DNA of 64,000 bases from Bacilli bacterium (GTDB lineage: Bacteria; Bacillota_I; Bacilli_A; RF39; UBA660). Location of the stretch: NCBI GenBank assembly GCA_051872635.1, contig JBJEEA010000005.1:77-64076 (forward strand), read 5' to 3'. The notes beneath the pieces were generated by a model. That model had not been told where the DNA came from, did not search any database, and saw only the letters and a program-made list of their open reading frames with translations. The translations under genes were made by a program, and so were the position numbers. Of the stretch, positions 5,368-26,924 are shown in pieces; position 1 is the first letter of the stretch; each line of letters starts with the position of its first letter.

Positions 5368-6054
5368 ATGAAAAATATTAAATATTTAATAATATCTCTA
5401 TTTCTCCTATGTTTAAATTTTACTTATGTAAAAGCTTCTTGCACTAGTGAAGAGTTATCTAGTTTAAAAGAAGAAATCAAAAAAATAAAAATAACCTATA
5501 AGCATTTAGGAGAAATAATTAATGATGATGGAAGTAAATCATATGATAAATTTTTAGTTACTGCTAAAAATATACCAGAAGGCGTTTACGTTCATTTAAG
5601 TCCAATGACAGAAGAAAATTTTGATGAAAGCACCGATGATTTAAAAATAAAATTAACCACAGGTACATGGTACTATAATATGTATTCATCAAAATGTGAA
5701 ACAGTAGTAGATATCATTACTGTAAAATTACCGCGATTTAATATCTATTCCTTAGACCCACTATGCGAAGGTATTGACAGTGATGATTTCCAATTATGTA
5801 GTAAATACTATGAATATGAATTCAGTCGTGAAACATTTGAAAAAAAAGTTAATGCTTATCGAGAAGAAAATAACATAGGTAAAACTGATAATGATAATAA
5901 TGAAGAAACAGAAAACAATAATATTTTAGAAGTAGTACTAGATTTTATAGAAACTTACAATTTATTCATAGTGGGAGGACTAACTATTGTCTTAATAATA
6001 TTAATAGTTATAATAGTAATTTCTAAGAAAAAGAAAAGAAAAATTTTAGAGTAA
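5368..6054 (+). CDS. Exported type-I membrane protein, first gene of the Tad/T4SS locus
   Basis: RBS GAAAGGAG. Signal peptide MKNIKYLIISLFLLCLNFTYVKA. Four Cys in the mature part. C-terminal TM plus KKKKRK stop-transfer. Confidence 0.6.
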   Translation: MKNIKYLIISLFLLCLNFTYVKASCTSEELSSLKEEIKKIKITYKHLGEIINDDGSKSYDKFLVTAKNIPEGVYVHLSPMTEENFDESTDDLKIKLTTGTWYYNMYSSKCETVVDIITVKLPRFNIYSLDPLCEGIDSDDFQLCSKYYEYEFSRETFEKKVNAYREENNIGKTDNDNNEETENNNILEVVLDFIETYNLFIVGGLTIVLIILIVIIVISKKKKRKILE

Positions 6055-6074
6055 TAAAGAAGGAGGAACTAAAT

Positions 6075-7874
6075 ATGAAAAAAGTAAATCAATATAAATA
6101 TATTTTAATTTTATTTATTTCACTTTTCATATTAATTCCTCAAATAAAAGCTGAAACAATAACTACAACGTATAATAATTATTATTTCTTTCTAGAACCA
6201 TATAAAGTATGTTTTGGAAGCGGTGACGATTGTGATACCATTGTAAATGGGACCACTGCAAATTTAAATGGGAGCCAAAATGAAACTGGCTTTATTAGAT
6301 TAATGTTAACTGCATTTGGAGGTAGTTATGAAAGAATAAATTTACTTGACAATAATCCAAATTCAGAGTGGAGCTTTGAAGATTTTTATATAAAACTAAA
6401 AGAAATTGAAGGTACAAATAAGCAAAACTATAGTTTTTCAGGATTATCATGTTCAACAAAATATATCGTAGAAAATAAAAGTGAAACAGAAGTAAATAGT
6501 TACTTTAGTCATGGCTGTTATAGAAGTGTTGGAGAAAATGATTGGAAAAATCAAATTGAAAATTGGAGTTATTCAAATTCAAATATATTAGCATGTGCTA
6601 GTGTAAATATCGATGTTAATGAAGCAGAAAGCAAATTTGAATATAAAAATTTTGATAATTCAAACGCCTATCTTTATAGCAAAATAGTAAGAAATCCAAC
6701 TACAGTAAATAATATTCAGAATGCTGAATTCAATAATAATATAAATTCTAGCAATTGTGAAGGGAAAATATACCCTATTAAAAGTGAAGACGGAAAGTAT
6801 AGAATATTTTCACCAGTATTATATAAATACACTTATACAACCACTTCTGAAGTATGTAAACCTAACTTAACAAAGCCAAATACTGGAAAATGTAATTCTA
6901 GTGAAAACACACTATCTAGTACTTGTGAAAAGGAAACAATAGAAACAAGTAATTCAAGAGCAGATGTCAAAATTGATCAGAATGGTACAGTATCTAATAT
7001 TCTAACACCAGATAGTGTATATCAAGGTGGTGGATTTAAATTTGGTTTTGTCTACTATAATGAAATAAGCTGGGATTTCGCTGGAGATATATATACAACG
7101 CTTGGTAGTACAGATGCTGCAAAAGAAGAAATAACAGCAGCAATGAAGGAAAAAATACAAAATATTGAAGCCTTTAAAGAAAGTATAATATTAGATAATA
7201 TAACCTTTGGAAATGAAACCATAGATAGTAGCCTTATTCAAAAAAGCTGCCAAAGGAGTGGTGAATTTAATCCAGGAGAAACCGTCACTACAATATGTAC
7301 TTTCTATTTACCAAATTCCGTAGTAGAACCTTATACAGGAAAGATAACTTACAGTACATCAATAGGAACAAACTATGGTATAAATAATAAATATTATACT
7401 CCTTTAACCTATGAAGGAAAATATAATCTAAAAGCTACATTAAAAAACTTAAATGTCTTAATAAATGATGAAAACTGGGTTGGGAATTGGAGCCTAACAT
7501 TTGATGGAAGTAAAGACAGTAGTTGCCAAATAGATGTAGTCAAACGTCTTTATGATAAAGTAGATGATAAATCCTATTCATTTGCCTTTATTTATAGGCC
7601 GATAGATTTAAATGACCCATTTCCAAATAGGAATGCAGGAGTAAATTGGTATGTTTGGTACAACCAAACTAGCAATAAAGAAAGACTAAAAGAAAGCTAT
7701 TCAAATTTACAATATCAAGTTAAATTAGATAATAAAAAAACGTATGCTATTAAAAATTATAATAGTAAGAATGATTACTTAAATTGGGACAGTATAGACG
7801 AAAGTGAAGAAAGTTCATTTATTGATGAATATTTCGATATTTATCGAAAGAACATTGAAGGTGATAATCCATGA
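6075..7874 (+). CDS. Secreted Cys-rich 599-aa protein (candidate adhesin or pilus-associated protein)
   Basis: RBS AGGAGG. Signal peptide ending IKAE. About a dozen Cys spread through the sequence. Stop overlaps the next start (ATGA). Confidence 0.6.
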   Translation: MKKVNQYKYILILFISLFILIPQIKAETITTTYNNYYFFLEPYKVCFGSGDDCDTIVNGTTANLNGSQNETGFIRLMLTAFGGSYERINLLDNNPNSEWSFEDFYIKLKEIEGTNKQNYSFSGLSCSTKYIVENKSETEVNSYFSHGCYRSVGENDWKNQIENWSYSNSNILACASVNIDVNEAESKFEYKNFDNSNAYLYSKIVRNPTTVNNIQNAEFNNNINSSNCEGKIYPIKSEDGKYRIFSPVLYKYTYTTTSEVCKPNLTKPNTGKCNSSENTLSSTCEKETIETSNSRADVKIDQNGTVSNILTPDSVYQGGGFKFGFVYYNEISWDFAGDIYTTLGSTDAAKEEITAAMKEKIQNIEAFKESIILDNITFGNETIDSSLIQKSCQRSGEFNPGETVTTICTFYLPNSVVEPYTGKITYSTSIGTNYGINNKYYTPLTYEGKYNLKATLKNLNVLINDENWVGNWSLTFDGSKDSSCQIDVVKRLYDKVDDKSYSFAFIYRPIDLNDPFPNRNAGVNWYVWYNQTSNKERLKESYSNLQYQVKLDNKKTYAIKNYNSKNDYLNWDSIDESEESSFIDEYFDIYRKNIEGDNP

Positions 7875-8803
7875 AATGGTCATTTGCCTCAGTAGGTTTA
7901 ATCGTCTTTGGATTAATAGGTGTAACAATTATCATGTTGTTTGAAGAACTTACAACAACTAATGAAAATGATTACTATTTATTAAAAGAAGTAACTGAAG
8001 CTGCTATGATTGATTCTGTTGATATAAGTTACTACCGTGAAACAGGAGAACTTAAAATAGTTAGAGAAAAATTTGTTGAAAATTTCACAAGAAGATTTGC
8101 TGAATCAACACTTTTAACAGGAAGTGGTTATACTATTAGTTTCTTTGATATTATTGAAACACCACCCAAAGTATCCGTTACTATAAATACAGGGATAGGT
8201 GAATATACAATTTATGAAGATACAAGTAGCTATAATGTCAATAATCGTCTTGATGCTATCTTAGAGTATATAGGTGAAAATACTTATGAGTCCTCTAATA
8301 GTATCAGAGATCCATATACAGAAAAAACCTATAAGAAGACATATTATAATTTAGTAAGAGTTAAAGACAATAGGGCTACTGTTACTGAACCTGTAAATAT
8401 TCCAGAAAAATTAAATCAAGGACATATTAAAAATGTCAAGATTAGGTCTATTTTAGGTGCTACTGTTGTTGAAGAAGAAAAAGATTTAATGCTTGGTATG
8501 CTTCAAAGAGAAATTGATTGGGCTAAAAGTACTGAAGATGATAATCGCACAGATTTTAATCCAGCATCAGCCAGTACAAGTATTAAAAATTATGCTTCGG
8601 AAATTGAGGTTAACATCTCATCTCCAGAGTGGTATAATTGTAGTGACAACTATAAAAGTAAAGAATGGATGAAAGGTACAGAAGTAGATTGTGGAAAATA
8701 TGATTATTTCATTCATTGGACCGGAGATTTAAATAGTAGTAAAAGTTTTATAGCAGTTAAATATGAAGTAACATGGTCATATGAAGAATATGAATATAAA
8801 TAA
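7871..8803 (+). CDS. N-terminally anchored 310-aa protein, possibly a pseudopilin-like or assembly component
   Basis: Translationally coupled (ATGA). Single N-terminal hydrophobic helix SFASVGLIVFGLIGVTIIMLF followed by E-E. No family recognised. Confidence 0.5.
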   Translation: MKWSFASVGLIVFGLIGVTIIMLFEELTTTNENDYYLLKEVTEAAMIDSVDISYYRETGELKIVREKFVENFTRRFAESTLLTGSGYTISFFDIIETPPKVSVTINTGIGEYTIYEDTSSYNVNNRLDAILEYIGENTYESSNSIRDPYTEKTYKKTYYNLVRVKDNRATVTEPVNIPEKLNQGHIKNVKIRSILGATVVEEEKDLMLGMLQREIDWAKSTEDDNRTDFNPASASTSIKNYASEIEVNISSPEWYNCSDNYKSKEWMKGTEVDCGKYDYFIHWTGDLNSSKSFIAVKYEVTWSYEEYEYK

Positions 8804-8816
8804 AAAGGAGGAAAAT

Positions 8817-9665
8817 ATGAATAATTTAAAAGCTTCGATGAAAAAGTTCTTTGGTAACAAAAATACTGTTACCATATTGGGGGTAATATTATGTTTAGTA
8901 ATATTATATATTGGTTATAATTATCGTATCAACAAAGAAGTTGAATTAGTACAAATACCATATGCTAAAGAGACAATTCAGCCAAGAACATATATAACAA
9001 AAGACATGATTGGTACAATGGAAGTGCCTAAAGCGTTCTTAGAGGGAAATTACTATACGAGTGTAAACAGTATTGTTGGTAAGTATTCTAATTATAATAC
9101 TGTTATAGCTAAAGGAAGTATTTTCTATACTGATTTAGTAGTATCAGAGGCAGATCTTCCTGATTCAGCTTTTCAAGATGTACCCGAAGGATATACAGTA
9201 ATTAACTATCCAGTAAATATATCTAGTACTTATGCTAATTCAATGGCTCCAGGTAGCTATATAAATATTTATTATAAGTCACTTAATGATGCTGGTGAAG
9301 TAATGTTTGGCAAATTTATAAGCAATGTCAAAGTATTAGATGTCAAGGATTCTTCAGGAAGACATGTCTTTGAAAATAGTGAAGAGTCTAGAACTCCTGC
9401 TTATATGTTATTTGCTGTCCCAGAAGAGACGCACTTACTTTTAAGAAAAGCATTGTACTTAGATAAATATGATGTTGAATTATTATTAATACCAAATACA
9501 GCAACTTTAAGTGAAAAAGATAAAGTAACCGTAAGCAGTACCCAAATTGAAGAATTTATAAATTCTAAAACCGTATTTGTATCAGTAGATGATTTACCTA
9601 ACATAGAAGATCAAGTAACTGAAGAAGAAAATAATACAAATGAAAATACAAATACCAATCAGTAA
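8817..9665 (+). CDS. CpaB/RcpC-like Flp pilus assembly protein (SAF-domain type)
   Basis: Start at ATG after AAAGGAGG. N-terminal TM, then a SAF-like stretch (ITKDMIGTMEVPKAFLEGNYYTS...IVGKY..TVIAKGSIFYTDLV). Sits immediately upstream of the Tad ATPase. Confidence 0.55.
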   Translation: MNNLKASMKKFFGNKNTVTILGVILCLVILYIGYNYRINKEVELVQIPYAKETIQPRTYITKDMIGTMEVPKAFLEGNYYTSVNSIVGKYSNYNTVIAKGSIFYTDLVVSEADLPDSAFQDVPEGYTVINYPVNISSTYANSMAPGSYINIYYKSLNDAGEVMFGKFISNVKVLDVKDSSGRHVFENSEESRTPAYMLFAVPEETHLLLRKALYLDKYDVELLLIPNTATLSEKDKVTVSSTQIEEFINSKTVFVSVDDLPNIEDQVTEEENNTNENTNTNQ

Positions 9666-9695: not shown

Positions 9696-11048
9696 ATGGA
9701 AGCCGAATTTACTCAGGTCGATTTTGGCCCTCTAAAAGCCTTTTTAGATAATGATGATGTCACCGATATATCATATAGCAATGGTGGACAAGTCTGGTTA
9801 AAGACATTGTCTCAAGGCGTATACAGAGTAGAAAATACCGGTATTGATAATGCCCTAATGGAAAAAATAGCTTTTCAGTGTGCCAATTCAATGGGAAAAT
9901 CTTTCAATATGGCTAATCCCTTCCTAGATGCCGAATCAGCAGAACTTCGTATGAATTTTGTTCATGACTCTATTGCTAAAAATGGAATAGCAGTCCTTAT
10001 AAGAAAAACACCGGCTAAAATAAGATTACAAAAAGATAAAATAATTGCCGAAGATTATATTAGATTAAATATTCATGACTTTCTCTTAAAATGTGTTGAA
10101 GGACACTGTAATATTATTGTCAGTGGAGAAACTGGTTCAGGTAAAACAGAGTTCATAAAATATTTAGCAGCTCATACCAAAGAAAATGAAAAACTAATAA
10201 CCATTGAAGACACACTAGAATTACACCTTGATAAAATATTTCCTCATCGTGATATCGTTGCTATGAAAACCAATAACATTGCTTCGTATTCTGATGTTTT
10301 GGTAACTTGTATGCGACAAAATCCTAGATGGATATTACTTTCCGAAGTAAGAAGTGCCGAAGCCGTAATGGCTGTTCGAAATTCTATTTCATCAGGTCAT
10401 AATATTTTATCAACAATACACGCTGATAAAGCTGAATCAATTCCAAACAGAATGTATAGCCTACTTGAAACTAATCAAGATATAGGTCAGTTTCTAACTA
10501 CTATCCATAGATATGTTCAACTAGGAGTTCATATTAAAGCTTACTATAGTCAAAAATATAAAAGATTCCATAGAGAAGTAGCTGAAGTTGTGGAATTCTA
10601 CGTAACAGAAGATAATAAAGCCGAGTACAAAATATTATATAAGAAAACACCAGATGGTAAAGAAACAGTAGCTAATCCTTCTAAATACTTACTTAGTTAT
10701 CTAGAAAGTCAAGGCGTGATAATGCCAAAAGATATTTTAGTAAAAGAAGAATTTACTGATGCTAGTAGCATATCTTTAGAAGAAAGTAAAATAGATGAAA
10801 ATTCTTTTGTTATAGATAACAGTACTATAACTCAAAATATTCCAAATAACTATAGTACAAATAATACCATGAATAATAATATTCCAAATAATTATGCTTC
10901 AAGTAATATTGAGGAGAATCAAGCTCCAATTAATGTAGGAGCAAATATGTCTGTAAATGGTCTAAATAGCAACAATATTCCAAATCCATATGCTAGTGCA
11001 GTAATTCCAAATGCTGTTAATATTACTAGTATAAATAATAATGTCTAA
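9696..11048 (+). CDS. cpaF: CpaF/TadA-type secretion ATPase (VirB11/PulE superfamily) with an Asn-rich C-terminal extension
   Basis: Walker A SGETGSGKT, ITIEDTLEL, RQNPRWILLSEVR, His box LSTIHA. Followed by two T2SS-F-like polytopic proteins. Confidence 0.85.
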   Translation: MEAEFTQVDFGPLKAFLDNDDVTDISYSNGGQVWLKTLSQGVYRVENTGIDNALMEKIAFQCANSMGKSFNMANPFLDAESAELRMNFVHDSIAKNGIAVLIRKTPAKIRLQKDKIIAEDYIRLNIHDFLLKCVEGHCNIIVSGETGSGKTEFIKYLAAHTKENEKLITIEDTLELHLDKIFPHRDIVAMKTNNIASYSDVLVTCMRQNPRWILLSEVRSAEAVMAVRNSISSGHNILSTIHADKAESIPNRMYSLLETNQDIGQFLTTIHRYVQLGVHIKAYYSQKYKRFHREVAEVVEFYVTEDNKAEYKILYKKTPDGKETVANPSKYLLSYLESQGVIMPKDILVKEEFTDASSISLEESKIDENSFVIDNSTITQNIPNNYSTNNTMNNNIPNNYASSNIEENQAPINVGANMSVNGLNSNNIPNPYASAVIPNAVNITSINNNV

Positions 11049-11057: not shown

Positions 11058-11960
11058 GTGATAAAATTGGAAATACTTATAATAGGTCTAATAATAATAT
11101 TTATTGTTTCATATAGAACTAAAAGAGGAGAGTCTATATATAAATTTATCTCTACTGAAGCAATAAATACCTATAAAAAAATAGAGCCTTACTCTTTTAA
11201 AGTAATGCGTGAAAAAGTAAAAGAATTAGGCCTTGAATATACTACAAGACAATACTTATTTCAAATAATTGCTTTTGCTGGGTTAGCCGGTGTTATAAGT
11301 TATTTATACTTTTACAATTTATTTATATCTGCTATATACATAATAGTAGCAGTATCATTTATTCCATATATAACCTACCTAAGATGTAAAAGACAGTATA
11401 GTGAATATATCTTCGAACAAGTTCAAGTATACTGTACTAATACCATTATGGAGTTTGCTACTACTCAAGCTTTTGTCAAATCATTAGAGGGAGTAGCAGA
11501 GTCAGGAGTACTAGAAGAACCACTTCTATCAGATGTTAAGACAATGATAGCCTTATCTTATGAAAAAGGCGATGTCTACGACTCTATTAAGTACATGGAT
11601 ACCAAATATCCTTATTATATGGTAAAAAATATGCACCAATTATTTTTACAAGTAACAAAGGAAGGTGCCAAAGATACTAGTGAGACATTTGAAAATATGC
11701 TATCAGATATAGATATTCTAGTAGAAGGTGTATATAGAGATAGAACAGATAGAGCAACCTTCCATAAACAGTTTTTAACTTTTGGTATAGCATTATATGG
11801 AATGGTAGCCTTAATTCAACTACTGATAGGTAAAGAAACTTATATATCTATGATTGATAATATCTTTATTAGAATAATAGTTCATGCTATCGTTATTATA
11901 AATAGTTGGTTTCTCCTTTCTGGAGAAAAATATTACAACGAGAATGTAGGTGCTGAATAA
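11058..11960 (+). CDS. TadB-like platform protein (T2SS-F-like topology)
   Basis: 300 aa. N-terminal TM, TM pair at ~aa 65-105, ~130-aa cytoplasmic domain, C-terminal TMs. Position right after the ATPase. Start could be TTG at 11067. Confidence 0.55.
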   Translation: MIKLEILIIGLIIIFIVSYRTKRGESIYKFISTEAINTYKKIEPYSFKVMREKVKELGLEYTTRQYLFQIIAFAGLAGVISYLYFYNLFISAIYIIVAVSFIPYITYLRCKRQYSEYIFEQVQVYCTNTIMEFATTQAFVKSLEGVAESGVLEEPLLSDVKTMIALSYEKGDVYDSIKYMDTKYPYYMVKNMHQLFLQVTKEGAKDTSETFENMLSDIDILVEGVYRDRTDRATFHKQFLTFGIALYGMVALIQLLIGKETYISMIDNIFIRIIVHAIVIINSWFLLSGEKYYNENVGAE

Positions 11961-13497: not shown

Positions 13498-13498
13498 C

Positions 13499-14913: not shown

Positions 14914-14918
14914 TCTAA

Positions 14919-15392: not shown

Positions 15393-15402
15393 CTTACTAG
15401 TA

Positions 15403-20289: not shown

Positions 20290-22073
20290 TGAATTTAAAA
20301 AGTGAACTAGCTCCTAAGGGGTTACAATTTAATCCAGCTGATTTTGTTATTAGTGATAGATATGCTACCATTTTAACAGTAATATCATATCCTAGATTTA
20401 TCGGAGCTGGATACCTGGCTAATTTAACTAATATGTCTGGTGTAAAATTAGTAATTAAACATATTCCTCTTCCGTTTTCAGTACTTGCTAAAATGTTAAA
20501 TAAAGAAATAGCCGACTTAAAAAGTAAATATCAACAAGAAAGAGATAGAACTATTCAAGAAAGAATTAGGCAAGATGTAGATTCATTAGAGTACTTTATT
20601 CAGCAGTTTACTGCTTCCCAAGCTAAAACTTTTGATTTTCAAATGCATATTATGGTAACTGCTGATACTAAAGAAGAACTTGAAATGAAGAAAGTTAATC
20701 TTAAGAACTATTTAGATGCTATGGAACTTAGAGCTATACCATTAAGGTTTGAACAAGAAAGAGTTCTAAAATCGATTCTTCCTATTTTTGATAAGCAACC
20801 AATTGAAAGTAGAATAGGTACTCCTATGCCTTCTCCTACTATGGCAGCAATGTATCCATTTATTTTTGATAGTATTAAAGATGATGGCTTATCAACATTA
20901 CTTGGCGTTGATTTTTCTGGTGGTGTAGTATTATTTAATCAATTCTTATATCAGTTAAAGAAAGAAAGCAATAGAAACAATGCTAATATGATTATTTTAG
21001 GTACATCTGGTAGTGGTAAATCCACAGCAGCTAAACTAATATTAAGAAGTCATATTCGAAATGGTTATCAAATAGTAGCAGTTGATCCCGAAGGCGAAAT
21101 AAGTGAAATGACAAGAATGTATGGAGGAGATGTCATAGATCTTGGTAAAGGTGGAGAATATGGTATGGTAAATCCACTTGAAGTAGTAATGGATGCTGAT
21201 GAAAATGAAATTAAAAATGGACTAGGATATACTGTATTAAATAAAACATTGCAGTCATTAAAAGCATTTATGAAATATTATTCACCTGATATTGAAGAGG
21301 ATGTTCTTGCACTATTTAGTGAAGTAGTCCAAGATACATATGCCAGGTTTGGAATAACATTTACTTCAGATTTTTCAAAATTCACTTCAAATGATTATCC
21401 AACTTTTGGAGATGTATATATAACAGTAACTAGTAAGTTAACATCTATGACAGTAAAAACACATGAAAGAGATGTTATGGAAAGACTAGAATTAAAACTA
21501 AGACCATTAGTTAGAGAACTTAAATATTATTTTAATGGTCATACTTCAATTAATACAGAAAGTGATTTCCTCGTGTTCAATATAAAAGAACTTATGAATT
21601 CAGATGTAAATATAAGAAATGCTTTATTATTTAATGTTCTTAAGTTTGCTTGGGGATTATGCTTAAACCCCAATGTTAATACTGTTCTATCAGTTGATGA
21701 AGCACATGTTTTACTTGGCGCAAAAAATGAATTAGGTGCTGAATTTTTAGCCCAAGTTCAAAGAAGAGCAAGAAAATATAACACAGGTACAATAATAATT
21801 ACTCAACAGCCATCAGACTTTGTCGCAGATGGAATATTAATGCATGGTAAAGCCATATTTGATAACTCTTCATATTATTTAGTTATGGGATTAAAGAAAC
21901 AATCTGTAGAAGATTTATCAATGTTAATAGACTTAAACGATAATGAGAAAGAAGGAATAAAAAGATTTAGTCAAGGTGAAGCATTATTTGTATGTGGAAA
22001 TAGAAGAATGCAAATTAATGTAGTTGTAACTGAAGATGAATTAGAGTCATTTGGCTCAGGTGGTGGATTATAG
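20289..22073 (+). CDS. virB4: VirB4-family T4SS ATPase (middle and ATPase domains, 594 aa)
   Basis: ISDRYATILTVISYPRF, Walker A GTSGSGKST, Walker B LSVDEAH, IIITQQPSD. ATG overlaps the previous stop (TAATG) and has its own GGTGA RBS. Confidence 0.85.
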   Translation: MNLKSELAPKGLQFNPADFVISDRYATILTVISYPRFIGAGYLANLTNMSGVKLVIKHIPLPFSVLAKMLNKEIADLKSKYQQERDRTIQERIRQDVDSLEYFIQQFTASQAKTFDFQMHIMVTADTKEELEMKKVNLKNYLDAMELRAIPLRFEQERVLKSILPIFDKQPIESRIGTPMPSPTMAAMYPFIFDSIKDDGLSTLLGVDFSGGVVLFNQFLYQLKKESNRNNANMIILGTSGSGKSTAAKLILRSHIRNGYQIVAVDPEGEISEMTRMYGGDVIDLGKGGEYGMVNPLEVVMDADENEIKNGLGYTVLNKTLQSLKAFMKYYSPDIEEDVLALFSEVVQDTYARFGITFTSDFSKFTSNDYPTFGDVYITVTSKLTSMTVKTHERDVMERLELKLRPLVRELKYYFNGHTSINTESDFLVFNIKELMNSDVNIRNALLFNVLKFAWGLCLNPNVNTVLSVDEAHVLLGAKNELGAEFLAQVQRRARKYNTGTIIITQQPSDFVADGILMHGKAIFDNSSYYLVMGLKKQSVEDLSMLIDLNDNEKEGIKRFSQGEALFVCGNRRMQINVVVTEDELESFGSGGGL

Positions 22074-22097: not shown

Positions 22098-23690
22098 ATG
22101 AATGAAAAACAACAAGATAGTGAGAACAAGTTATCTAAAAAAGAAAAAGCTGAATCTGCTGGTAAAGATATAGCAGAAATTGGAGCAAAAGCATTAGGAA
22201 CATATTATGGAGGAGAGGCAGGAGGAGCAATAGTAGATGAAGCTCTAAATACTAAAGCCGGTCAAAAAGCAGCAACTAAAGCAGGTAAACGACTAGCTAA
22301 AAATCCAATAGCCAAAAGAGCCCTTGTTAAAGCCGAACCGACGATTTCTCAAAACAAAGAAAATATAAATAGAGCTTTAGGAATGTCATTAGCTAGCAGC
22401 ACCAGTAGTAGTAGTTCAGCAACCAATAGTACAGTAACAACTAGTGATGGGAATGCAGAAGAAAATTCCTCAAGTAATTTGATGACTTCAAACAATTTAT
22501 CTAGTAATGACAATACAGATACTAAAGAAAAAAATAATAAAATAAGTGGTAGTGTAAAGGGAATCTTTAAAAATAAAAGTATAAAATTTAAGTTAATTAC
22601 TATAGGTATTATAGCTGGATTAGTATTTACTATGATTTTTATAGTTGTTTTAATATCACCACTAATGTCTTTAGGAATAATCGATATTGGTGGTGCAAGT
22701 TATGGAAATGGTTCACTATCATATGCAGATTATTCAAGCATTGGATCAAGTACTAGTTATTGGTGGCCGATTGGCGGAAGCAATATATCTATAGTAGATG
22801 GTAAAGAGTTTGCTACTGATTCGCCAACTTGTACTACTATTACCTCTAATTTTGGCTTAAGACAATTAGATGGTAGTAATAATGATCATACCGGTATAGA
22901 TATAGCTTGTCAACATCCAAGCAATCAAGACATTGTTATAGCAGCACTTGATGGAACAGTAATCAATGTAGTTAATGGATACGCTGATGGTAGAAATAAA
23001 TCTGCTGGTTATGGTAATTATGTAAAAATTCAGCATAATAATGGTGATATAACAATATATGGTCACATGTACATTAATAGTATAACCGTAAGTATTGGAG
23101 ATCATGTAAGTCAAGGACAAGTTATTGGTAAGATGGGAAGCAGTGGTAACAGTAAAGGGACTCATTTACATTTTGAAATTAGAGAAAATGGTACAGCAAT
23201 TGATCCAGCTAATCTTATATCATCTAGTAATCCAAGACCTACATCAAGTACAGGTAATTATATTAATGCTAACTCTAATAAAGAATCTATTTGCTTGAGT
23301 TTAAAAGCAAATGGCTTTACAGAAAATGCTACAATTGCTTCACTAACTAATATATACCACGAAAGTGGATTCAAAACAGATGCAGTAGGAGATGGTGGGG
23401 CAAGCTATGGAATATGTCAGTGGTATAACAGTAGAAATATGAATTTAAGAAACGCTTTTCCAAATAATTATGATACTCTAGAAGCACAAATTCAATTTTT
23501 AATATATGAACTTGAAAATAATTATAATAATCTTTACAACAATCTTACTACTAGTAGTTTAAGTGCTAATGAGTTAACTTATAAATTTTGTATAATTTTT
23601 GAAAGCCCAGCTGACACTGAAAATACATGCCGCAAAAGAGCGAGCAATTCTGTTAATTTTACAGATTATGTAAAAAATGGTTGCAAATAA
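22098..23690 (+). CDS. Membrane-anchored bifunctional cell-wall hydrolase (M23 peptidase plus lysozyme-like domain), VirB1 analogue
   Basis: HTGIDIA...GNYVKIQH...GSSGNSKGTHLHFEIR (M23). C-terminal ESGF...SYGICQW...EAQIQFLIYEL (phage-tail-lysozyme-like). One TM at ~aa 165-190. Confidence 0.8.
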   Translation: MNEKQQDSENKLSKKEKAESAGKDIAEIGAKALGTYYGGEAGGAIVDEALNTKAGQKAATKAGKRLAKNPIAKRALVKAEPTISQNKENINRALGMSLASSTSSSSSATNSTVTTSDGNAEENSSSNLMTSNNLSSNDNTDTKEKNNKISGSVKGIFKNKSIKFKLITIGIIAGLVFTMIFIVVLISPLMSLGIIDIGGASYGNGSLSYADYSSIGSSTSYWWPIGGSNISIVDGKEFATDSPTCTTITSNFGLRQLDGSNNDHTGIDIACQHPSNQDIVIAALDGTVINVVNGYADGRNKSAGYGNYVKIQHNNGDITIYGHMYINSITVSIGDHVSQGQVIGKMGSSGNSKGTHLHFEIRENGTAIDPANLISSSNPRPTSSTGNYINANSNKESICLSLKANGFTENATIASLTNIYHESGFKTDAVGDGGASYGICQWYNSRNMNLRNAFPNNYDTLEAQIQFLIYELENNYNNLYNNLTTSSLSANELTYKFCIIFESPADTENTCRKRASNSVNFTDYVKNGCK

Positions 23691-23701
23691 AGGAGATATT
23701 T

Positions 23702-24577
23702 ATGAATAGATTTACTAAAGATGATTTAAAAACTTTAATCGTAGTAATATTAGTATGTACTATATTTGCATCAATAGTTTTAGTAGTTAATATAAAAAGT
23801 AATAGCGAAAAGTTAGAAGCAGTAAATGAATACAACACTTTTTTTTCAACAACTAAATATGTAAATTCCTATTTAAATTATCTATCGAATGGAGATAGCC
23901 AAGCTGTTTATAATTTACTTTTTGATAAATATATAGAAAAATATAACATTACTGAAGATAATGTCTTATCTAAATTAAATAAATATCCTAAAGATATTTC
24001 TATTAGAGTAAAACAAATGGAATATGTTAAAGTAAAAGATAATTATATATACTATATAAATGGAAAAATTATCGAAAATGGCTATGATTATGAAAAAGTA
24101 ATAGATGAAAATTTTGAAATAATTGTAATTAATGATTTTAATAATTTATCAGTAGCTTTATATCCTATAAATGATACCAATTATAAAAAGATAATAGATA
24201 ATATAAAGGAAATAAACATAGTTCAAAATAATACCAATCATATTGTTAAATCAGACCTTATAACTAAAGAACAGATTTGTATTATGTATTTATCTGATTA
24301 CTTAAATGAAATTAAAACTAACATTGACTATTCATATGAAATTCTTAGTCAAAGTATGAAAAAGAAATATACCACTCTAGATTCTTACAAGAAATATATT
24401 AATAGTCAAATTAATAATCTTACCACAGTTGCAGATAAATGCAAAGAGGAAGAAATTGATAAAAAGAGAGTCTATACAGTTGTAGATAAAAATGAAAATG
24501 TTTATTCTTTTACTGAAGAATCTATAATGAATTATAAAGTTGATTTATATTTTAAAGAAGATAAAAATGAACAATAA
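23702..24577 (+). CDS. N-terminally anchored protein in the VirB8/TcpC/ConB position
   Basis: Start at ATG after AAGGAGA. Single N-terminal TM plus a ~250-aa extracytoplasmic part. Assigned from gene order and topology only. Confidence 0.35.
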   Translation: MNRFTKDDLKTLIVVILVCTIFASIVLVVNIKSNSEKLEAVNEYNTFFSTTKYVNSYLNYLSNGDSQAVYNLLFDKYIEKYNITEDNVLSKLNKYPKDISIRVKQMEYVKVKDNYIYYINGKIIENGYDYEKVIDENFEIIVINDFNNLSVALYPINDTNYKKIIDNIKEINIVQNNTNHIVKSDLITKEQICIMYLSDYLNEIKTNIDYSYEILSQSMKKKYTTLDSYKKYINSQINNLTTVADKCKEEEIDKKRVYTVVDKNENVYSFTEESIMNYKVDLYFKEDKNEQ

Positions 24578-24705: not shown

Positions 24706-26883
24706 ATGAAAATAAAAGTAGAAAAAAAAGATTTAATAATATTTATAGCTTTTTGCGTTTTCCTATTATATTTATGCGCTATTGGAGTTTTAAATGCCTC
24801 AAGCATAGCAAGTGAAGGTAAATTTTATGGATTTTTACCATTTAAAGCTTTTACTTCTAAATATATTGGTATGACACTATTACTTTTTTTAGCATCAATT
24901 ATTGGTATTTTTTTAGCAGTAAAGTCTTATATTTTCGATCATGAAAAGGGATTTGGACTTTCAATTGGCTCTAAAAAAGAAAAAGGATATTCTAGATGGG
25001 CCACTGATAACGAATTTAAAAAAGGATTAGATATAGTTAATATTAAAGATGAAAAAATTCCAGCAGCAGGTATTGCTTTATATAGTAAAAAAGGAAAAAT
25101 GTGGGTTGATAATGGTGAAGACCACTATTTAGTCATGGGTGCTACTGGTTCTGGTAAAACTGTTATTGTAGCAAAGCCAATGATAAAATTACTTGCCAAA
25201 CATGACGAATCAATGATTTTAACAGATCCTAAGGGTGAATTATATGAAGAAACCGCCGAAATGTTAAAAGCAGAAGGATATAATATAATTACCTTAAATT
25301 TTAGAGATCCAGGTCATGGTAATGCTTGGAACCCTATGAGCTTACCTTATCAATTATATAAAGATGGAAATCAAGATAAAGCAATTGAACTCTTAGATGA
25401 CTTAGCATTAAATATACTATATGATGAAAAAACAACTGGTGATCCCTTTTGGGAAAAAACCGCGGCAGATTATTTTACTGGTTTGGCTTTAGGACTATTT
25501 GAAGATGGTACAGAAGCTCAAATAAACTTAAATAGTTTAAATTTAATGTGTAGCTTAGGTGAAGAAAGATTTGGTGGACCAAATAATAATTATATAAAAG
25601 AGTACTTTAATAGCAAAGATCCATCAAAACCAGCATATATAAATGCATCTGGTACCGTATTTACTGCCGATGAAACAAAGCAAGGTATTATTGCAACTTT
25701 TAAACAAAAAATAAAGCTATTTTCATCACGTGAAAACTTATCAGAAATGCTTGCTTATAGTGACTTTGATATGCGTGAGATAGGACGAAAGAAAACAGCG
25801 GTATTTTTAATCGTTCAAGATGAAAAGAAAACACTTCATCCACTTGCCACTATTTTCATTAAACAGTGTTATGAAACACTTATAGATGTGGCACAGGAAT
25901 GTGGTGGAAAACTGCCGTTTAGAACTAACTTTATTCTAGATGAATTTGCCAATATGCCACCACTTAAAGATGTAACAACAATGGTAACTGCTGCTAGAAG
26001 TAGATTAATTAGGTTCACTTTTATAATACAGAATTTTGCCCAACTTACTAAAGTTTATGGAAAAGAAGATGGGGATACCATACGAGGAAACTGTAATTTA
26101 TTATATTTAATAAGTAGTGAAATAGCAGCCTTGGAAGAAATAAGCAAAATGTGTGGGGAAGTAAAGTCAAAAGAAAAAGAAAAAACCGCTTCAACCCCAC
26201 TAGTTACAGTAAGTGATTTACAGAGATTAAATAAATTTGAAATAATCGTTTTAAGAAGAAGAATGTTCCCATTCAAAACTAGATTTCAGACAGATTTTGA
26301 AGTTGACTGGGGTAGAACTTATCCAAAAGCCACACCACCATCTAGAGAAAGAAGAGAACTAGAACTATTTGATATAAGAGAATTTGTAAAAGCTAAAAAG
26401 CAAGAGAAAATGCAACAAATGACAAATAATATGGGTAGTAGTCCTTTTATGAATAGTCCTTTTGGAGGATCTGTATCTCCATTTGGAGTTTCAAATCCAT
26501 TTATTCAACCTAGTCCATTTAGTTCTTCTTCTCCAGAGTTTATGGGAGGTCCTAAATCTTCTAACAATAGTGAAAATGAAACTTTTAATATTGATGAATT
26601 AGTCAAGAAAATAGATGCTAAAATAGCAGAAATAGAAAAAGAAGAAGCCGAAGAAAATCAGAAAAACAGTCTTTCATTTAATGAATTAATAAAACCACAA
26701 AACAATGAAAAAGAAAACATTGCTTTTGATGAAAAATCAAATGATAATACTGTTGTGATTAATAATCAAGTCGAAGAAACTTTATCTAATAAAGAAAATG
26801 AAGAAGATAAAAATAGTAGCTCTTTATATGAAGATGATACTGATGATGACGCCTTCTTTGATGATTTCTTTAGTGATGATTAA
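24706..26883 (+). CDS. virD4: VirD4/TraG-family type IV coupling protein (T4CP)
   Basis: Two N-terminal TMs, Walker A MGATGSGKT, Walker B FILDEFANMPP, IQNFAQL. Long low-complexity C-terminal tail. Confidence 0.85.
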   Translation: MKIKVEKKDLIIFIAFCVFLLYLCAIGVLNASSIASEGKFYGFLPFKAFTSKYIGMTLLLFLASIIGIFLAVKSYIFDHEKGFGLSIGSKKEKGYSRWATDNEFKKGLDIVNIKDEKIPAAGIALYSKKGKMWVDNGEDHYLVMGATGSGKTVIVAKPMIKLLAKHDESMILTDPKGELYEETAEMLKAEGYNIITLNFRDPGHGNAWNPMSLPYQLYKDGNQDKAIELLDDLALNILYDEKTTGDPFWEKTAADYFTGLALGLFEDGTEAQINLNSLNLMCSLGEERFGGPNNNYIKEYFNSKDPSKPAYINASGTVFTADETKQGIIATFKQKIKLFSSRENLSEMLAYSDFDMREIGRKKTAVFLIVQDEKKTLHPLATIFIKQCYETLIDVAQECGGKLPFRTNFILDEFANMPPLKDVTTMVTAARSRLIRFTFIIQNFAQLTKVYGKEDGDTIRGNCNLLYLISSEIAALEEISKMCGEVKSKEKEKTASTPLVTVSDLQRLNKFEIIVLRRRMFPFKTRFQTDFEVDWGRTYPKATPPSRERRELELFDIREFVKAKKQEKMQQMTNNMGSSPFMNSPFGGSVSPFGVSNPFIQPSPFSSSSPEFMGGPKSSNNSENETFNIDELVKKIDAKIAEIEKEEAEENQKNSLSFNELIKPQNNEKENIAFDEKSNDNTVVINNQVEETLSNKENEEDKNSSSLYEDDTDDDAFFDDFFSDD

Positions 26884-26890
26884 TAAATAT

Positions 26891-26924
26891 AAAGATATAG
26901 TAAAAAAATTTTACTATATCTTTT
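26891..26924 (+). terminator. Rho-independent terminator closing the T4SS module
   Basis: AAAGATATAGTAAAA / TTTTACTATATCTTT stem. Confidence 0.6.

What the first reader, a model, noticed from the sequence alone, without database searches (positions are those of the whole stretch)
5368..26924. Tad/Flp-type pilus module joined head-to-tail with a Gram-positive-type T4SS in one 21.5-kb locus
Seen in sequence: about 20 same-strand, tightly packed or overlapping genes.

- **Genes 4-10** carry Tad hallmarks:
  - a CpaB-like SAF protein;
  - a CpaF/TadA ATPase with Walker A, Asp box, Walker B and His box;
  - two T2SS-F-like platform proteins;
  - a 73-aa Flp-like prepilin and a TadE-like protein;
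  - a TadZ-like degenerate MinD.
- **Genes 11-19** carry monoderm T4SS hallmarks:
  - VirB2/TrbC-like two-helix proteins;
  - a VirB6-like polytopic protein and a VirB3-like protein;
  - VirB4 with Walker A and B;
  - an M23+lysozyme hydrolase;
  - a bitopic protein in the VirB8 position;
  - a VirD4 coupling protein.

Established knowledge: monoderm conjugative T4SSs (ICEBs1 Con, pCW3 Tcp, pCF10 Prg, Tn916) are described as pilus-less and rely on surface adhesins. Among diderms, IncI plasmids such as R64 pair a T4SS with a separate type IVb thin pilus that stabilises mating in liquid.

Inference: this locus could be a monoderm counterpart, with a retractile Tad pilus supplying cell contact for a T4SS. 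Alternatively it is a chimeric DNA or protein translocation machine. I do not recall this architecture being described.
Basis: partly seen in the sequence, partly recalled or inferred. Interest (0 to 1): 0.9.

Follow-up and report, generated by a model that had tools for sequence, protein, structure and literature searches.

The report
Fixed pilus-and-secretion locus of gut bacteria
Nineteen same-strand genes in the chromosome of an uncultured gut bacterium (order RF39) combine a distant relative of a Tad-type pilus machine with a Gram-positive transfer channel; the same combination sits, apparently unrecognised, in known conjugative plasmids such as pLS20, but here it is a fixed, non-mobile part of the genome in hundreds of species.

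Summary
The genes are real: 19 co-directional ORFs at 5353-26883.

**T4SS half.** It is solid: VirB4, a VirD4 of the CD1115 family, a VirB6-like protein, T4SS_pilin domains and an M23+lysozyme hydrolase.

**Tad half.** It is supported only by remote methods.
- The ATPase is a T2SSE protein in its own clade with Gram-positive plasmid "VirB11" proteins. It is neither CpaF nor true VirB11.
- g6 matches a TadB profile (hhalign 95-97%).
- g7 is fused to g6 in other organisms.
- g4 matches CpaB.
- g10 has a ParA/MinD fold.
- g8 and g9 share an invariant short leader ending in Gly.
- Pfam Flp, TadE and T2SSF models do not hit, and there is no prepilin peptidase in 64 kb.

**Architecture.** It is not new at the sequence level. 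It is collinear with pLS20 genes 34-54, pXO2/pAW63 and pHTβ-type plasmids, where these genes are called "VirB11" plus unknowns.

- The locus is chromosomal, with rRNA, RecA and tmRNA around it.
- Both flanks are syntenic in relatives.
- The window holds no recognisable relaxase or integrase.
- At least 476 species representatives carry it.
- About one informative locus in five keeps the filament module without the T4SS.

**Verdict.** A domesticated pLS20-type transfer apparatus with a built-in type-IV-filament module. Its substrate is unknown.

The parts
5353..6054 (+). g1, 233 aa: signal peptide plus C-terminal membrane anchor; candidate surface protein, fast-evolving
   Evidence: Sequence. 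Only 26-75% identity in relatives whose g6 is 60-92% identical. Sits in the position of the pLS20 adhesin region.
6075..7874 (+). g2, 599 aa: secreted Cys-rich protein; candidate adhesin or tip protein
   Evidence: No family hit. The most divergent gene of the block. The function is inferred from position only.
7871..8803 (+). g3, 310 aa: DUF5411, N-terminal hydrophobic helix; counterpart of pLS20 gene 36
   Evidence: Pfam DUF5411 at 6.9e-50. Family HMM against the pLS20-like p36 gives 7.5e-5. Conserved N-terminus MKWSFASVG....
8781..9665 (+). g4, 294 aa: CpaB/RcpC-like bitopic protein (SAF-type)
   Evidence: Family HMM against the annotated Microvirga CpaB gives 1.4e-6. TIGR03177 at 1.4e-3 and the FlgA C-terminal model at 2e-3, both below their cut-offs.
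9696..11048 (+). g5, 450 aa: hexameric secretion ATPase (T2SSE superfamily) with an Asn-rich tail
   Evidence: Pfam T2SSE, 92.6 bits. PDB: CpaF 73 bits, VirB11 60, archaeal GspE/FlaI 57-59. NCBIfam: VirB11 117 bits, TadA-conjugal 105, all far below their cut-offs. Forms a clade with the pLS20, pZB18 and pXO2 ATPases, bootstrap 90.
11058..11960 (+). g6, 300 aa: TadB-like platform protein (remote T2SSF relative); counterpart of pLS20 gene 38
   Evidence: hhalign of A1 against a 9-sequence TadB profile gives 95.1%, E 3.4e-8, 234 columns. Against a TadB+TadC profile it gives 96.8%, E 3e-10. Five control families give E >= 0.077. Against pLS20-like p38: 97.5%. AF2 pLDDT 85.8. The only compact Foldseek matches are the GspF cytoplasmic domains, and they are not significant.
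11960..12754 (+). g7, 264 aa: second platform protein (TadC position); counterpart of pLS20 gene 39
   Evidence: Fused to a g6-like half in 500-720-aa proteins elsewhere (hhalign 98.8%). HMM against pLS20-like p39 gives 6.9e-4. Against a TadB+TadC profile E is 5.8e-4, which is weak. Single-sequence comparisons were negative.
12814..13035 (+). g8, 73 aa: pilin-like protein with leader MKEATG, then a hydrophobic helix and a small Cys-containing head
   Evidence: The N-terminus MKEA[TAS]GE..MT is invariant in 33 orthologues. One weak Pilin_N hit at 0.0086. No Flp hit.
13057..13497 (+). g9, 146 aa: minor-pilin-like protein with leader M[RK][DE]AxG; counterpart of pLS20 gene 40
   Evidence: 78 orthologues share the leader. 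HMM against the pZB18 120-aa protein gives 4.2e-4 and against pLS20-like p40 gives 4.9e-3. No TadE hit.
13499..14521 (+). g10, 340 aa: N-terminal alpha/beta domain plus ParA/MinD-fold domain with a degenerate P-loop (TadZ/CpaE-like build)
   Evidence: AF2 pLDDT 82. Foldseek against PDB gives 42 hits below 1e-3; the top is the ParA-family ATPase 3ea0 at 1.5e-5, followed by ParA, FleN, FlhG, MinD and BcsQ. No sequence-level match to CpaE.
14584..14913 (+). g11, 109 aa: VirB2-like two-helix protein (T4SS_pilin type)
   Evidence: Paralogue of the g12 C-terminus (3e-10). Weak match to the Mycoplasma ICE Mbov_0395 pilin-like model at 1.3e-3.
14917..14953 (+). Hairpin plus U-run directly after the g11 stop (terminator-like)
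   Evidence: dG -14.1 kcal/mol, z -4.9, 0 of 200 shuffles as good. Sequence.
15352..15392 (+). Perfect 18-bp hairpin plus U-run, followed by a TGnTATAAT-like box and an RBS before g12
   Evidence: dG -18.7 kcal/mol, z -6.3. Also. The role (terminator or attenuator) is inferred.
15451..17286 (+). g12, 611 aa: signal peptide, large variable ectodomain and C-terminal T4SS_pilin domain; counterpart of pLS20 gene 46 by build
   Evidence: Pfam T4SS_pilin at 5.4e-4 for residues 528-590.. Size varies from 368 to 611 aa in relatives.
17311..19410 (+). g13, 699 aa: VirB6-like polytopic channel protein with a long charged tail
   Evidence: Pfam TrbL_4, 31 bits against a cut-off of 27. MMCAP2_0566 / Mbov_0396 models at 2.5e-10 and 9e-8. 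HMM against the pLS20_p028-family protein gives 3.7e-4.
19434..19760 (+). g14, 108 aa: VirB3-like small membrane protein
   Evidence: Family HMM against the pZB18 DUF5592 protein gives 5.5e-4. Weak TcpE hit at 0.0089.
19624..20289 (+). g15: N-terminal part of a split VirB4 (the likely start is the ATG near 19726, giving 188 aa)
   Evidence: Matches positions 87-277 of NF045975 (Mycoplasma ICE VirB4) at 1.2e-14. TraC-like PF26593 in the orthologues.
20289..22073 (+). g16, 594 aa: VirB4 ATPase body
   Evidence: NF045975, 353 bits, positions 294-893. Pfam P-loop_TraG and AAA_10. 94% identical in near relatives.
22098..23690 (+). g17, 530 aa: membrane-anchored cell-wall hydrolase (M23 + lysozyme); VirB1 role
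   Evidence: Pfam Peptidase_M23 at 5e-27 and Phage_lysozyme2 at 4.2e-24.
23681..24577 (+). g18, 298 aa: bitopic protein in the VirB8 position; unassigned
   Evidence: No hit in Pfam, NCBIfam or PDB. Replaced by 170-aa and 159-aa proteins in a relative.
24706..26883 (+). g19, 725 aa: VirD4 coupling protein (CD1115 family) with an acidic tail
   Evidence: NF045973, 286.6 bits, above the 250 cut-off. Pfam T4SS-DNA_transf at 4.7e-51.

Best explanation
The locus is one chromosomally fixed copy of the pLS20/pXO2/pHTβ-type Gram-positive transfer apparatus, in a gut bacterium of the order RF39 (closest named relative: Clostridium sp. CAG:302). It has two sub-machines.

**(i) A divergent type-IV-filament (Tad-like) assembly system.**
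- The g5 ATPase drives a g6/g7 platform in the membrane.
- The platform would polymerise g8, with g9 and perhaps g3 as minor subunits. All three start with a short charged leader or a hydrophobic N-terminal helix.
- The CpaB-like g4 and the ParA/MinD-like g10 act as accessory or positioning factors.
- g1 and g2 are candidate surface adhesins.

**(ii) A monoderm T4SS channel.**
- VirB2-like g11 and g12, VirB6-like g13 and VirB3-like g14.
- A split VirB4 (g15/g16), the wall hydrolase g17 and the VirD4 receptor g19.

**Inferred mechanism.** The filament crosses the wall and makes or tightens contact with another cell. The T4SS then passes a VirD4-selected substrate through that contact.

**Status of the locus.** The window has no recognisable relaxase or integrase, and the locus sits in conserved housekeeping synteny. 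It is therefore a domesticated cellular organelle, not an active ICE.

**Shown versus inferred.**
- Shown: gene identities, homology to the plasmid systems, chromosomal fixation and breadth of distribution.
- Inferred: that a filament is actually built, that the two halves work together, and what the substrate is. My split is roughly even between DNA (Mycoplasma-like chromosomal exchange) and proteins (effector or partner-cell interaction, as in Patescibacteria).
For: **Collinear homology with the plasmid systems (gene tables).**
- g3~p36, g5~p37 (175 bits), g6~p38, g7~p39 and g9~p40.
- g13~VirB6, g14~DUF5592, g16~VirB4 and g19~VirD4.
- hhalign of the g6 family against p38 gives 97.5%, E 5.8e-12, and against pZB18 gives 93%.

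**Filament module.**
- g6 against TadB profiles: 95-97%, with clean negative controls.
- g6+g7 are fused in other organisms.
- g4 matches CpaB at 1.4e-6.
- g10 has a ParA/MinD fold.
- g8 and g9 carry an invariant leader ending in Gly.
- The ATPase clade is separate from both VirB11 and CpaF.

**T4SS.**

**Chromosomal and fixed.**
- 23S and 5S rRNA, RNase P RNA, tmRNA, tRNAs, RecA, PFOR, an aminoacyl-tRNA synthetase and SufB surround the locus.
- Both flanks are syntenic in relatives.
- At least 476 GTDB species representatives carry a g6 relative.
- VirB4 is 94% identical in relatives where QueH is 79%.
- No relaxase or integrase family was hit among the proteins scanned (all ORFs of at least 80 aa outside the locus, all 19 locus proteins). 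The pLS20-like plasmid has a MobP2 relaxase downstream.
Against: - No curated Flp, TadE or T2SSF model is hit.
- The Foldseek match of g6 to GspF is not significant.
- g7's link to TadC is weak.
- No A24 prepilin peptidase lies in the 64 kb, so leader cleavage is unproven.
- Two strong terminator-like hairpins separate g11 from g12, and relatives carry variable cassettes there.
- About 12 of 62 informative species loci keep the filament module but have housekeeping genes where the T4SS would be. The two halves can therefore exist apart.
- No filament has been reported for pLS20-type plasmids. The pLS20 family paper states that they lack pilus components.
- A relaxase could lie elsewhere in the genome.
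Confidence: 0.7

Rival explanations
1. Two functionally independent systems are merely neighbours. One is a stand-alone Tad-like adhesion pilus, a core colonisation organelle of RF39. The other is a separate T4SS.
For: - Some loci have the filament module only, and their ATPases nest inside the clade of T4SS-carrying species.
- Terminator-like hairpins and a promoter-like box lie in the gap.
- Variable cassettes are inserted at the junction in relatives.
Against: - The same linkage is kept in three unrelated plasmid families whose only shared business is conjugation.
- The T4SS is adjacent in 45 of 62 informative RF39 loci, and 5 more carry g11/g12 hits.
- The VirB2-like g11 sits on the filament side of the gap.
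Confidence: 0.2
2. There is no filament. g5 is simply the VirB11 of a monoderm T4SS, and g6-g10 are lineage-specific channel or scaffold proteins.
For: - The best NCBIfam hit of g5 is VirB11 (117 bits).
- Pfam sees no T2SSF, Flp or TadE domain.
- No prepilin peptidase is present in the window.
- The literature treats pLS20 p37 as VirB11.
Against: - g6 matches TadB profiles nearly full length at 95-97%, with clean controls.
- g6+g7 fusions mimic two-domain PilC/GspF platforms.
- A CpaB-like protein and a ParA/MinD-like protein accompany them.
- Two pilin-like families share a conserved leader ending in Gly.
- The ATPase is outside the VirB11 clade.
- Classical VirB11 has no platform partner (my own knowledge).
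Confidence: 0.12
3. The locus is an integrated conjugative element, active or recently decayed, and its relaxase and integrase lie outside the window.
For: - All the T4SS parts are of conjugation type.
- VirD4 is intact.
- The closest VirB4, VirB6 and pilin models are those of Mycoplasma ICEs.
Against: - Both flanks are housekeeping genes and are syntenic in relatives whose VirD4 is about 83% identical.
- Proteins of the locus are 60-94% identical across hundreds of species, and in the nearest relatives VirB4 is better conserved than the flanking housekeeping genes.
- GC content does not shift sharply at either boundary.
- No recombinase or relaxase family was hit in the 64 kb.
Confidence: 0.06
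4. The locus is a DNA-uptake (competence) machine. The filament captures DNA and the T4SS imports it, as ComB does in Helicobacter or Ced does in archaea.
For: - No relaxase was found.
- A weak CedD hit for VirB4 at 5e-11.
Against: - A VirD4 coupling protein is present, and the review lists DNA-uptake systems among those that lack one.
- No ComEC or ComEA lies in the locus.
- The closest relatives are export or conjugation systems.
Confidence: 0.08

Closest known systems
pLS20-family conjugation operon of Bacillus plasmids (genes 34-54)
   Same: - Same order: adhesin region, small N-terminal-TM protein (p36), T2SSE ATPase (p37, called VirB11), two ~250-aa membrane proteins (p38, p39), small N-terminal-TM proteins (p40, p41), a two-helix protein (p45), a large protein with a C-terminal TM segment (p46), VirB6, DUF5592, VirB4 and a hydrolase.
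- Pairwise homology was shown for g3, g5, g6, g7, g9, g13, g16 and g19.
- VirD4 is of the same CD1115 family.
   Different: - pLS20 is a plasmid with a MobP2 relaxase, oriT, SSB, primase-like genes and quorum-sensing control. The window has none of these.
- VirD4 lies at the end of the block here, but before VirB6 in pLS20.
- I did not find a CpaB-like g4 or a ParA-like g10 in the pLS20-like stretch (no hit).
- VirB4 is split here.
pXO2 / pAW63 / pBT9727 (Bacillus cereus group) and pHTβ / pMG1 / pZB18 (Enterococcus) transfer regions
   Same: - ATPase followed by 278-aa, 250-aa and 121-aa proteins in pAW63.
- The same layout in pZB18.
- Their ATPases form one clade with the RF39 ATPases, bootstrap 90.
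   Different: - They are plasmid-borne and conjugative, with isopeptide or Rhs-like adhesins.
- ATPase identity is only about 30-34%.
Tad/Flp pilus (Caulobacter Cpa, Aggregatibacter Tad)
   Same: - The same cast by role: CpaB-like protein, secretion ATPase, two single-domain platform proteins, a small major subunit plus a larger minor subunit, and a ParA/MinD-type protein.
- The ATPase-TadB-TadC order matches annotated Tad loci.
   Different: - The ATPase is not in the CpaF clade.
- There are no Flp or TadE family hits, and the leader MKEATG|E differs from the Flp G/XXXXEY motif (motif from my own knowledge).
- No TadV peptidase is present in the window.
- There is no secretin, as expected for a monoderm.
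Mycoplasma integrative conjugative elements (Mbov_0395-0397 / MMCAP2_0565-0566 genes)
   Same: The best NCBIfam models for g11, g13 and g15+g16 are the Mycoplasma ICE pilin-like protein, transmembrane protein and VirB4, in the same gene order. NCBI files one carrier of the locus, Ca. Fimihabitans, under Mycoplasmatota.
   Different: - Every score is below the curated cut-off (353 against 590 for VirB4).
- No DDE transposase was found.
- Whether Mycoplasma ICEs carry a T2SSE ATPase or platform genes was not checked here.
Chromosomal relaxase-less T4SS of Patescibacteria (Saccharibacteria and relatives)
   Same: - A monoderm, conjugation-derived T4SS fixed in the chromosome of reduced-genome bacteria.
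- Usually no relaxase, with VirB2-like pilins.
- It acts alongside type IV pili and is needed for life on a partner cell.
   Different: - It belongs to a different phylum with its own VirB4 clade.
- There the T4P genes are a separate classical system, not a pLS20-type module in the same block.
- RF39 is not known to be epibiotic.
IncI (R64) thin pilus plus Dot/Icm-like T4SS, and PAPI-1
   Same: The concept is the same: a type IV filament encoded with a T4SS helps or is required for mating.
   Different: - Those are diderm systems with classical type IVb pili (PilQ/PilR/PilS/PilU) in a separate operon.
- No specific homology was shown here.

Membership tests
Tad/Flp pilus system | TadA/CpaF-clade secretion ATPase | tested here: not met
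   - The T2SSE superfamily is met.
- Scores to CpaF, VirB11, TrbB and FlaI are all similar and far below the curated cut-offs.
- The NJ tree puts the protein with the Gram-positive plasmid ATPases, outside the CpaF clade (a rough tree of 17 sequences).
Tad/Flp pilus system | Two single-domain T2SSF platform proteins (TadB, TadC) next to the ATPase | tested here: inconclusive
   - g6 is remote but convincing: hhalign 95-97% to TadB profiles with clean controls, and E 2.5e-5 against a single TadB.
- g7 is supported only by fusion to g6 and E 5.8e-4.
- The Pfam T2SSF gathering score is not reached: 2 of 26 relatives hit, best 1.1e-3.
- Foldseek to GspF domains is not significant.
Tad/Flp pilus system | Flp prepilin (Flp_Fap family, G/XXXXEY processing motif) | tested here: not met
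   - No Flp hit in 17 g8 orthologues.
- The leader is MKEATG followed by E-[VLA]-[SN]-[ML]-T.
- One weak archaeal Pilin_N hit.
Tad/Flp pilus system | TadE/TadF pseudopilins | tested here: not met
   No TadE hit in 13 g9 orthologues. The resemblance is limited to size and an N-terminal leader plus helix.
Tad/Flp pilus system | Dedicated prepilin peptidase (TadV/CpaA, Peptidase_A24) | tested here: not met
   No A24 hit among the window proteins scanned, which were all ORFs of at least 80 aa outside the locus and all 19 locus proteins. The rest of the genome could not be examined.
Tad/Flp pilus system | CpaB/RcpC protein | tested here: inconclusive
   Family HMM against an annotated CpaB gives 1.4e-6. 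TIGR03177 scores 17.9 bits against a cut-off of 71.
Tad/Flp pilus system | TadZ/CpaE: atypical ParA/MinD ATPase with an N-terminal receiver-like domain | tested here: inconclusive
   - The fold is met: ParA/MinD hits down to 1.5e-5, a two-domain model and a degenerate P-loop.
- There is no sequence-level link to CpaE.
pLS20-type Gram-positive conjugation system | Conserved order p36 - ATPase p37 - p38 - p39 - p40 ... VirB6 - DUF5592 - VirB4 - hydrolase, with homologous proteins | tested here: met
pLS20-type Gram-positive conjugation system | VirD4 of the CD1115 family | tested here: met
   NF045973 scores 286.6 bits, above the cut-off of 250. The pLS20-like plasmid and pZB18 carry the same annotation.
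pLS20-type Gram-positive conjugation system | Relaxase, oriT and residence on a self-transmissible replicon | tested here: not met
   - No relaxase, replication or integrase family was hit among the proteins scanned in the 64 kb.
- The context is chromosomal.
- The pLS20-like plasmid has MobP2.
- oriT was not searched for.
Mycoplasma ICE T4SS | Mbov_0397-family VirB4, Mbov_0396 TM protein and Mbov_0395 pilin-like protein at the curated scores | tested here: not met
   These are the best-scoring models, but all fall below their cut-offs: 353 against 590, 31.9 against 70, and 18.3 against 40.
Integrative conjugative element (any) | Integrase or DDE recombinase, attachment repeats, variable presence | tested here: not met
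   - No recombinase family was hit.
- Both flanks are syntenic in relatives.
- Attachment repeats were not searched for specifically.

The most novel reading that the evidence does not exclude
The 'VirB11' of all pLS20/pXO2/pHTβ-type Gram-positive conjugation systems is really the motor of an unrecognised type IV filament: a Gram-positive conjugative pilus or pseudopilus built from p40/p41-like subunits. In the order RF39 this filament-plus-T4SS apparatus has been domesticated. There it would be a core, relaxase-independent organelle for obligate contact with other cells, exchanging DNA or proteins in a way that parallels the essential T4SS of Patescibacteria.
Probability: 0.3. Interest if true: 0.85.

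Novelty: new variant of a known kind. Interest (0 to 1): 0.62.

Why it matters
**1. Mating contact in Gram-positive conjugation.** Reviews still say these systems have no pilus, and how mating pairs form is called elusive.
- If the ATPase/platform/pilin-like module builds a filament, that gap closes for a whole class of plasmids. The class includes vancomycin-resistance pHTβ/pMG1 plasmids and the pXO2 backbone.
- The idea is directly testable in pLS20, which is genetically tractable and transfers in liquid.

**2. Biology of RF39.** RF39 is a widespread, uncultured gut lineage with a reduced genome.
- A highly conserved, non-mobile transfer apparatus in at least 476 species points to an important cell-cell interaction, in DNA exchange, predation or dependency.
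- That could explain how these auxotrophs live, and could guide attempts to culture them.

**3. Evolution of the ATPase.** An ATPase clade that is neither CpaF nor VirB11, but keeps platform partners, bears on how VirB11 arose from type-IV-filament motors.

Tried and rejected
**Searches that found nothing or failed**
- Megablast of the whole locus against plasmids: no match.
- Pfam and NCBIfam on g6, g7, g9 and g10: nothing.
- Pfam at E up to 5 on g6, g7 and the pLS20/pZB18 p38/p39 proteins: only one T2SSF trace at E 2.2.
- Profile of the g6 family against PDB sequences: nothing.
- Foldseek of the g6 model against PDB: no significant hit. The GspF domains were the only compact matches.
- hhalign of g7 against a single TadB or TadC, and of g10 against a CpaE-position protein: negative.
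- g10 profile against PDB sequences: negative.
- Pfam on 30 pilin-like orthologues: no pilin family.
- g18 and the two upstream ORFs (505-2040, 2115-3068) against PDB: nothing.
- Rfam: nothing in the locus or the gap.
- Promoter scan: not above chance.
- Exact look-up of the window's own g6: only 1.5-kb contigs.

**Literature searches**
- No paper linked pLS20 with TadB/TadC, or RF39 with T4SS. This library is open-access only, so absence is not proof.

**Ideas considered and rejected**
- Plasmid or phage origin: rejected because of the rRNA, RecA and tmRNA context.
- Diderm host such as Fusobacterium: rejected because the organism names are Bacilli/RF39 and the components are of monoderm type.

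Full report
**1. What is in the sequence**

The window is AT-rich (about 24-32% G+C), and G+C does not shift sharply at the borders of the locus. Between 5353 and 26883 there are 19 + strand ORFs. They are separated by a few bases or overlap, apart from one 539-bp gap at 14914-15450. I call them g1-g19.

**2. The T4SS half is solid**

Curated models identify these parts:
- VirB4 (g16; P-loop_TraG and AAA_10).
- A VirD4 coupling protein (g19). It passes the NCBIfam cut-off for the CD1115 family, 286.6 bits against 250.
- A VirB6-like TrbL_4 protein (g13).
- A membrane-anchored M23 + lysozyme hydrolase (g17).

Further points:
- g11 and the C-terminus of g12 are paralogous two-helix T4SS_pilin domains (3e-10).
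- g14 matches the DUF5592/VirB3-like protein of pZB18 (5.5e-4).
- The best NCBIfam models for g11, g13 and VirB4 are those of Mycoplasma ICEs (Mbov_0395, 0396, 0397), in the same gene order. All score below the curated cut-offs.
- VirB4 is split. g15 covers model positions 87-277 and g16 covers 294-893.
- g18, in the 'VirB8 position', matches nothing.

**3. The Tad half is real but remote**

*ATPase (g5).*
- It is a T2SSE ATPase with all four motifs.
- It is about equally distant from several known ATPases. Against PDB sequences it scores 73 bits to CpaF, 60 to VirB11 and 57-59 to archaeal GspE/FlaI.
- Against NCBIfam it scores 117 bits to VirB11, 105 to TadA-conjugal and 97 to TrbB.
- In a rough bootstrapped NJ tree it groups with the ATPases of a pLS20-like plasmid, pZB18 and pXO2 (bootstrap 90). 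That group lies outside the VirB11 clade (94) and the CpaF+TrbB clade (98).

*Platform proteins (g6, g7).*
- g6 and g7 have no Pfam hit.
- A search of 1.84 billion representative proteins found only 241 relatives of g6.
- An alignment of 26 diverse relatives (A1) matches a 9-sequence TadB profile over 234 columns at 95.1% (E 3.4e-8).
- The same alignment matches a TadB+TadC profile at 96.8% (E 3e-10).
- Five other families from the locus gave E >= 0.077 as controls.
- The AF2 model of g6 is confident (pLDDT 85.8). Its only compact PDB matches are the cytoplasmic domains of GspF (TM 0.54-0.61), and these are not statistically significant.
- Several relatives of 500-720 aa are fusions of a g6-like half and a g7-like half (98.8%). 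This resembles two-domain PilC/GspF platforms.
- g7 on its own reaches only E 5.8e-4 against the TadB+TadC profile.

*Accessory proteins (g4, g10).*
- g4 matches an annotated CpaB at 1.4e-6.
- g10 folds (pLDDT 82) into an N-terminal alpha/beta domain plus a ParA/MinD-type domain with a lysine-less P-loop.
- Foldseek gives 42 hits below 1e-3 for g10, led by ParA-family ATPases, FleN, FlhG and MinD.

*Pilin-like proteins (g8, g9).*
- g8 (33 orthologues) begins with an invariant MKEA[TAS]GE, followed by a hydrophobic helix.
- g9 (78 orthologues) begins with M[RK][DE]AxG, followed by a hydrophobic helix.
- Two different families therefore share a short charged leader ending in Gly. That is what a prepilin-type signal looks like.

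*What fails.*
- No Flp, TadE or pilin model is hit.
- No A24 peptidase lies in the 64 kb.

I therefore call the module 'type-IV-filament-like, Tad-like in cast'. I do not call it a member of the Tad family.

**4. The architecture is already present in known plasmids**

- tblastn of g5 finds its best plasmid relatives in Bacillus pLS20-family plasmids, Listeria plasmids and Enterococcus pZB18, a pMG1/pHTβ-like plasmid.
- In all of them the ATPase is followed by two membrane proteins of about 250 aa and by small proteins with an N-terminal TM segment. VirD4, VirB6, DUF5592 and VirB4 come next.
- pAW63 and pXO2 have the same order.
- Family HMMs built from 80 RF39 loci link several gene pairs: g3 to p36, g5 to p37, g6 to p38, g7 to p39 and g9 to p40. 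They also link g13 to VirB6, g14 to DUF5592, g16 to VirB4 and g19 to VirD4.
- hhalign gives 97.5% for g6 against p38.
- The pLS20 family paper lists gene 37 as 'putative VirB11' and genes 38-47 as unknown. It states that these plasmids encode no pilus components.
- I found no paper connecting pLS20 with TadB/TadC. A December 2025 T4SS review mentions neither pLS20 nor Tad.

So the gene order is known. The filament reading appears not to be.

**5.

*Chromosomal context.*
- The window starts in an rRNA operon (23S and 5S).
- It also holds RNase P RNA, tmRNA, four tRNAs, RecA, PFOR, an aminoacyl-tRNA synthetase, SufB, DivIVA and PgsA.
- Directly upstream of the locus are QueH, a SpoU methylase and a thioredoxin. 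Directly downstream are a rhodanese, YunB, SufB and an amidase.
- Both flanks are the same in relatives from human-gut metagenomes, on contigs of 148 kb to 849 kb.
- No relaxase, integrase, transposase or replication protein was detected in the window.

*Distribution.*
- g6, g10 and VirD4 each have 6000-8000 close relatives in metagenome protein sets.
- The record names include Bacilli MAGs, 'uncultured Tenericutes', Clostridium sp. CAG:302, CAG:914 and Ca. Fimihabitans.
- Ca. Fimihabitans and family CAG-302 are assigned to GTDB order RF39. [quoted passage not shown]
- In near relatives VirB4 is 94% identical, while QueH is 79% and SpoU is 85%. That indicates strong purifying selection.

**6. 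Modularity**

- Of 62 species loci with enough downstream sequence, 45 have the T4SS right after the filament module.
- Five more have g11/g12 hits, with the rest presumably pushed out of range.
- About 12 have housekeeping genes there instead: RlmH and LeuRS in CAG:914, Lgt and TrxB in another.
- The ATPases of two such loci nest inside the clade of T4SS-carrying species.
- The T4SS was therefore most likely lost or moved while the filament module was kept. The filament module must have value on its own.

In the window, the gap between g11 and g12 has two strong hairpins with U-runs (z -4.9 and -6.3) and a TGnTATAAT-like box before g12. In relatives the same spot carries variable genes: CHAP, C39/C70-like peptidase and Listeria-Bacteroides-repeat proteins, with partners of about 215 aa. 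pLS20-type operons are known to read through internal terminators by processive antitermination (abstract of PMC8191782). The hairpins therefore do not prove separate operons.

**7. Mechanism**

*Shown.*
- A secretion ATPase, a TadB-like platform, pilin-like substrates, and CpaB-like and ParA-like accessory proteins are encoded next to a complete monoderm T4SS with a coupling protein.

*Inferred.*
- The ATPase and platform extrude g8/g9 (and perhaps g3) as a short filament through the wall.
- g1, g2 or the g12 ectodomain make contact with another cell. These are the fastest-evolving genes of the block.
- The T4SS then transfers a VirD4-selected substrate.

- pLS20 transfers in fluid environments.
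- From my own knowledge, pMG1/pHTβ and pAW63 also mate efficiently in broth.

*Substrate.*
- For RF39 the substrate is open.
- Options are DNA, as in Mycoplasma-type chromosomal transfer (mentioned), or proteins, as in Patescibacteria, where a relaxase-less chromosomal T4SS is essential for epibiotic growth.
- The peptidase-plus-partner cassettes in relatives hint at effector/immunity pairs. That is speculation.

**8. Verdict**

- The architecture is a new variant of a known kind: a domesticated chromosomal version of the pLS20-type system.
- Its filament module seems not to have been recognised as such.
- Interest is moderate to high. The filament hypothesis is directly testable in pLS20, and the RF39 distribution parallels the Patescibacteria story.
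- The key claims, that a filament exists and what the substrate is, remain inferences from remote homology.

Noticed in passing
window 1-424; 40397-40732; 45202-45648; 53402-53707: The 3' end of 23S rRNA, 5S rRNA, RNase P RNA, tmRNA (tag GNSYKNAVAFA) and four tRNAs are present. The T4SS locus lies about 5 kb downstream of an rRNA operon.
   Followed up: partly
window 14914-15450: This AT-rich gap has two strong hairpins with U-runs, at 14917-14953 and 15352-15392, and an extended -10-like box before g12. It matches no Rfam family. It could be an operon boundary, an antitermination target or a small transcript.
   Followed up: partly
L006 14383-16031; L007 14334-17452; L008 13715-15326: In close relatives the junction between the two modules carries variable cassettes. 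They encode a CHAP-domain protein, a Peptidase_C39_2/C70-like protein or a Listeria-Bacteroides-repeat protein; the CHAP and C39-like proteins are each followed by a 215-219-aa protein. These could be effector/immunity pairs or adhesins.
   Followed up: partly
window 19624-22073: VirB4 is encoded as two ORFs, g15 and g16. Together they cover the single Mycoplasma ICE VirB4 model NF045975. The split is conserved in relatives as 188-aa and 594-aa products.
   Followed up: partly
proteins P0228, P0229, P0230, P0253, P0257 (not in window): Single proteins of 500-720 aa fuse a g6-like half and a g7-like half. The organisms that carry them were not identified.
   Followed up: partly
L018, L021, L023, L024, L028-L030, L032, L034, L037, L067, L076: These RF39 species keep g3-g10 but have housekeeping genes where the T4SS would be. 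A conserved unassigned protein of 442-488 aa follows g10 there.
   Followed up: partly
window 10770-11048; 18950-19410; 26400-26883: Long low-complexity tails are present: Asn-rich on the ATPase, Ser-rich and charged on VirB6, and acidic on VirD4, which ends in DDTDDDAFFDDFFSDD.
   Followed up: no
window 54229-59805: A 1858-aa protein shows only weak fibronectin-III and purple-acid-phosphatase-N signals. It is probably a giant surface protein.
   Followed up: no
window 505-3068: Two ORFs of 511 aa and 317 aa lie between the rRNA operon and queH. They have no family or PDB match, yet they are conserved in relatives as 495-aa and 321-aa proteins.
   Followed up: partly
L090/L091 16542-17360: A relative carries an extra YhcG/DUF1016 nuclease-like gene between ssb and the HTH gene. 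This gene is absent from the window.
   Followed up: no
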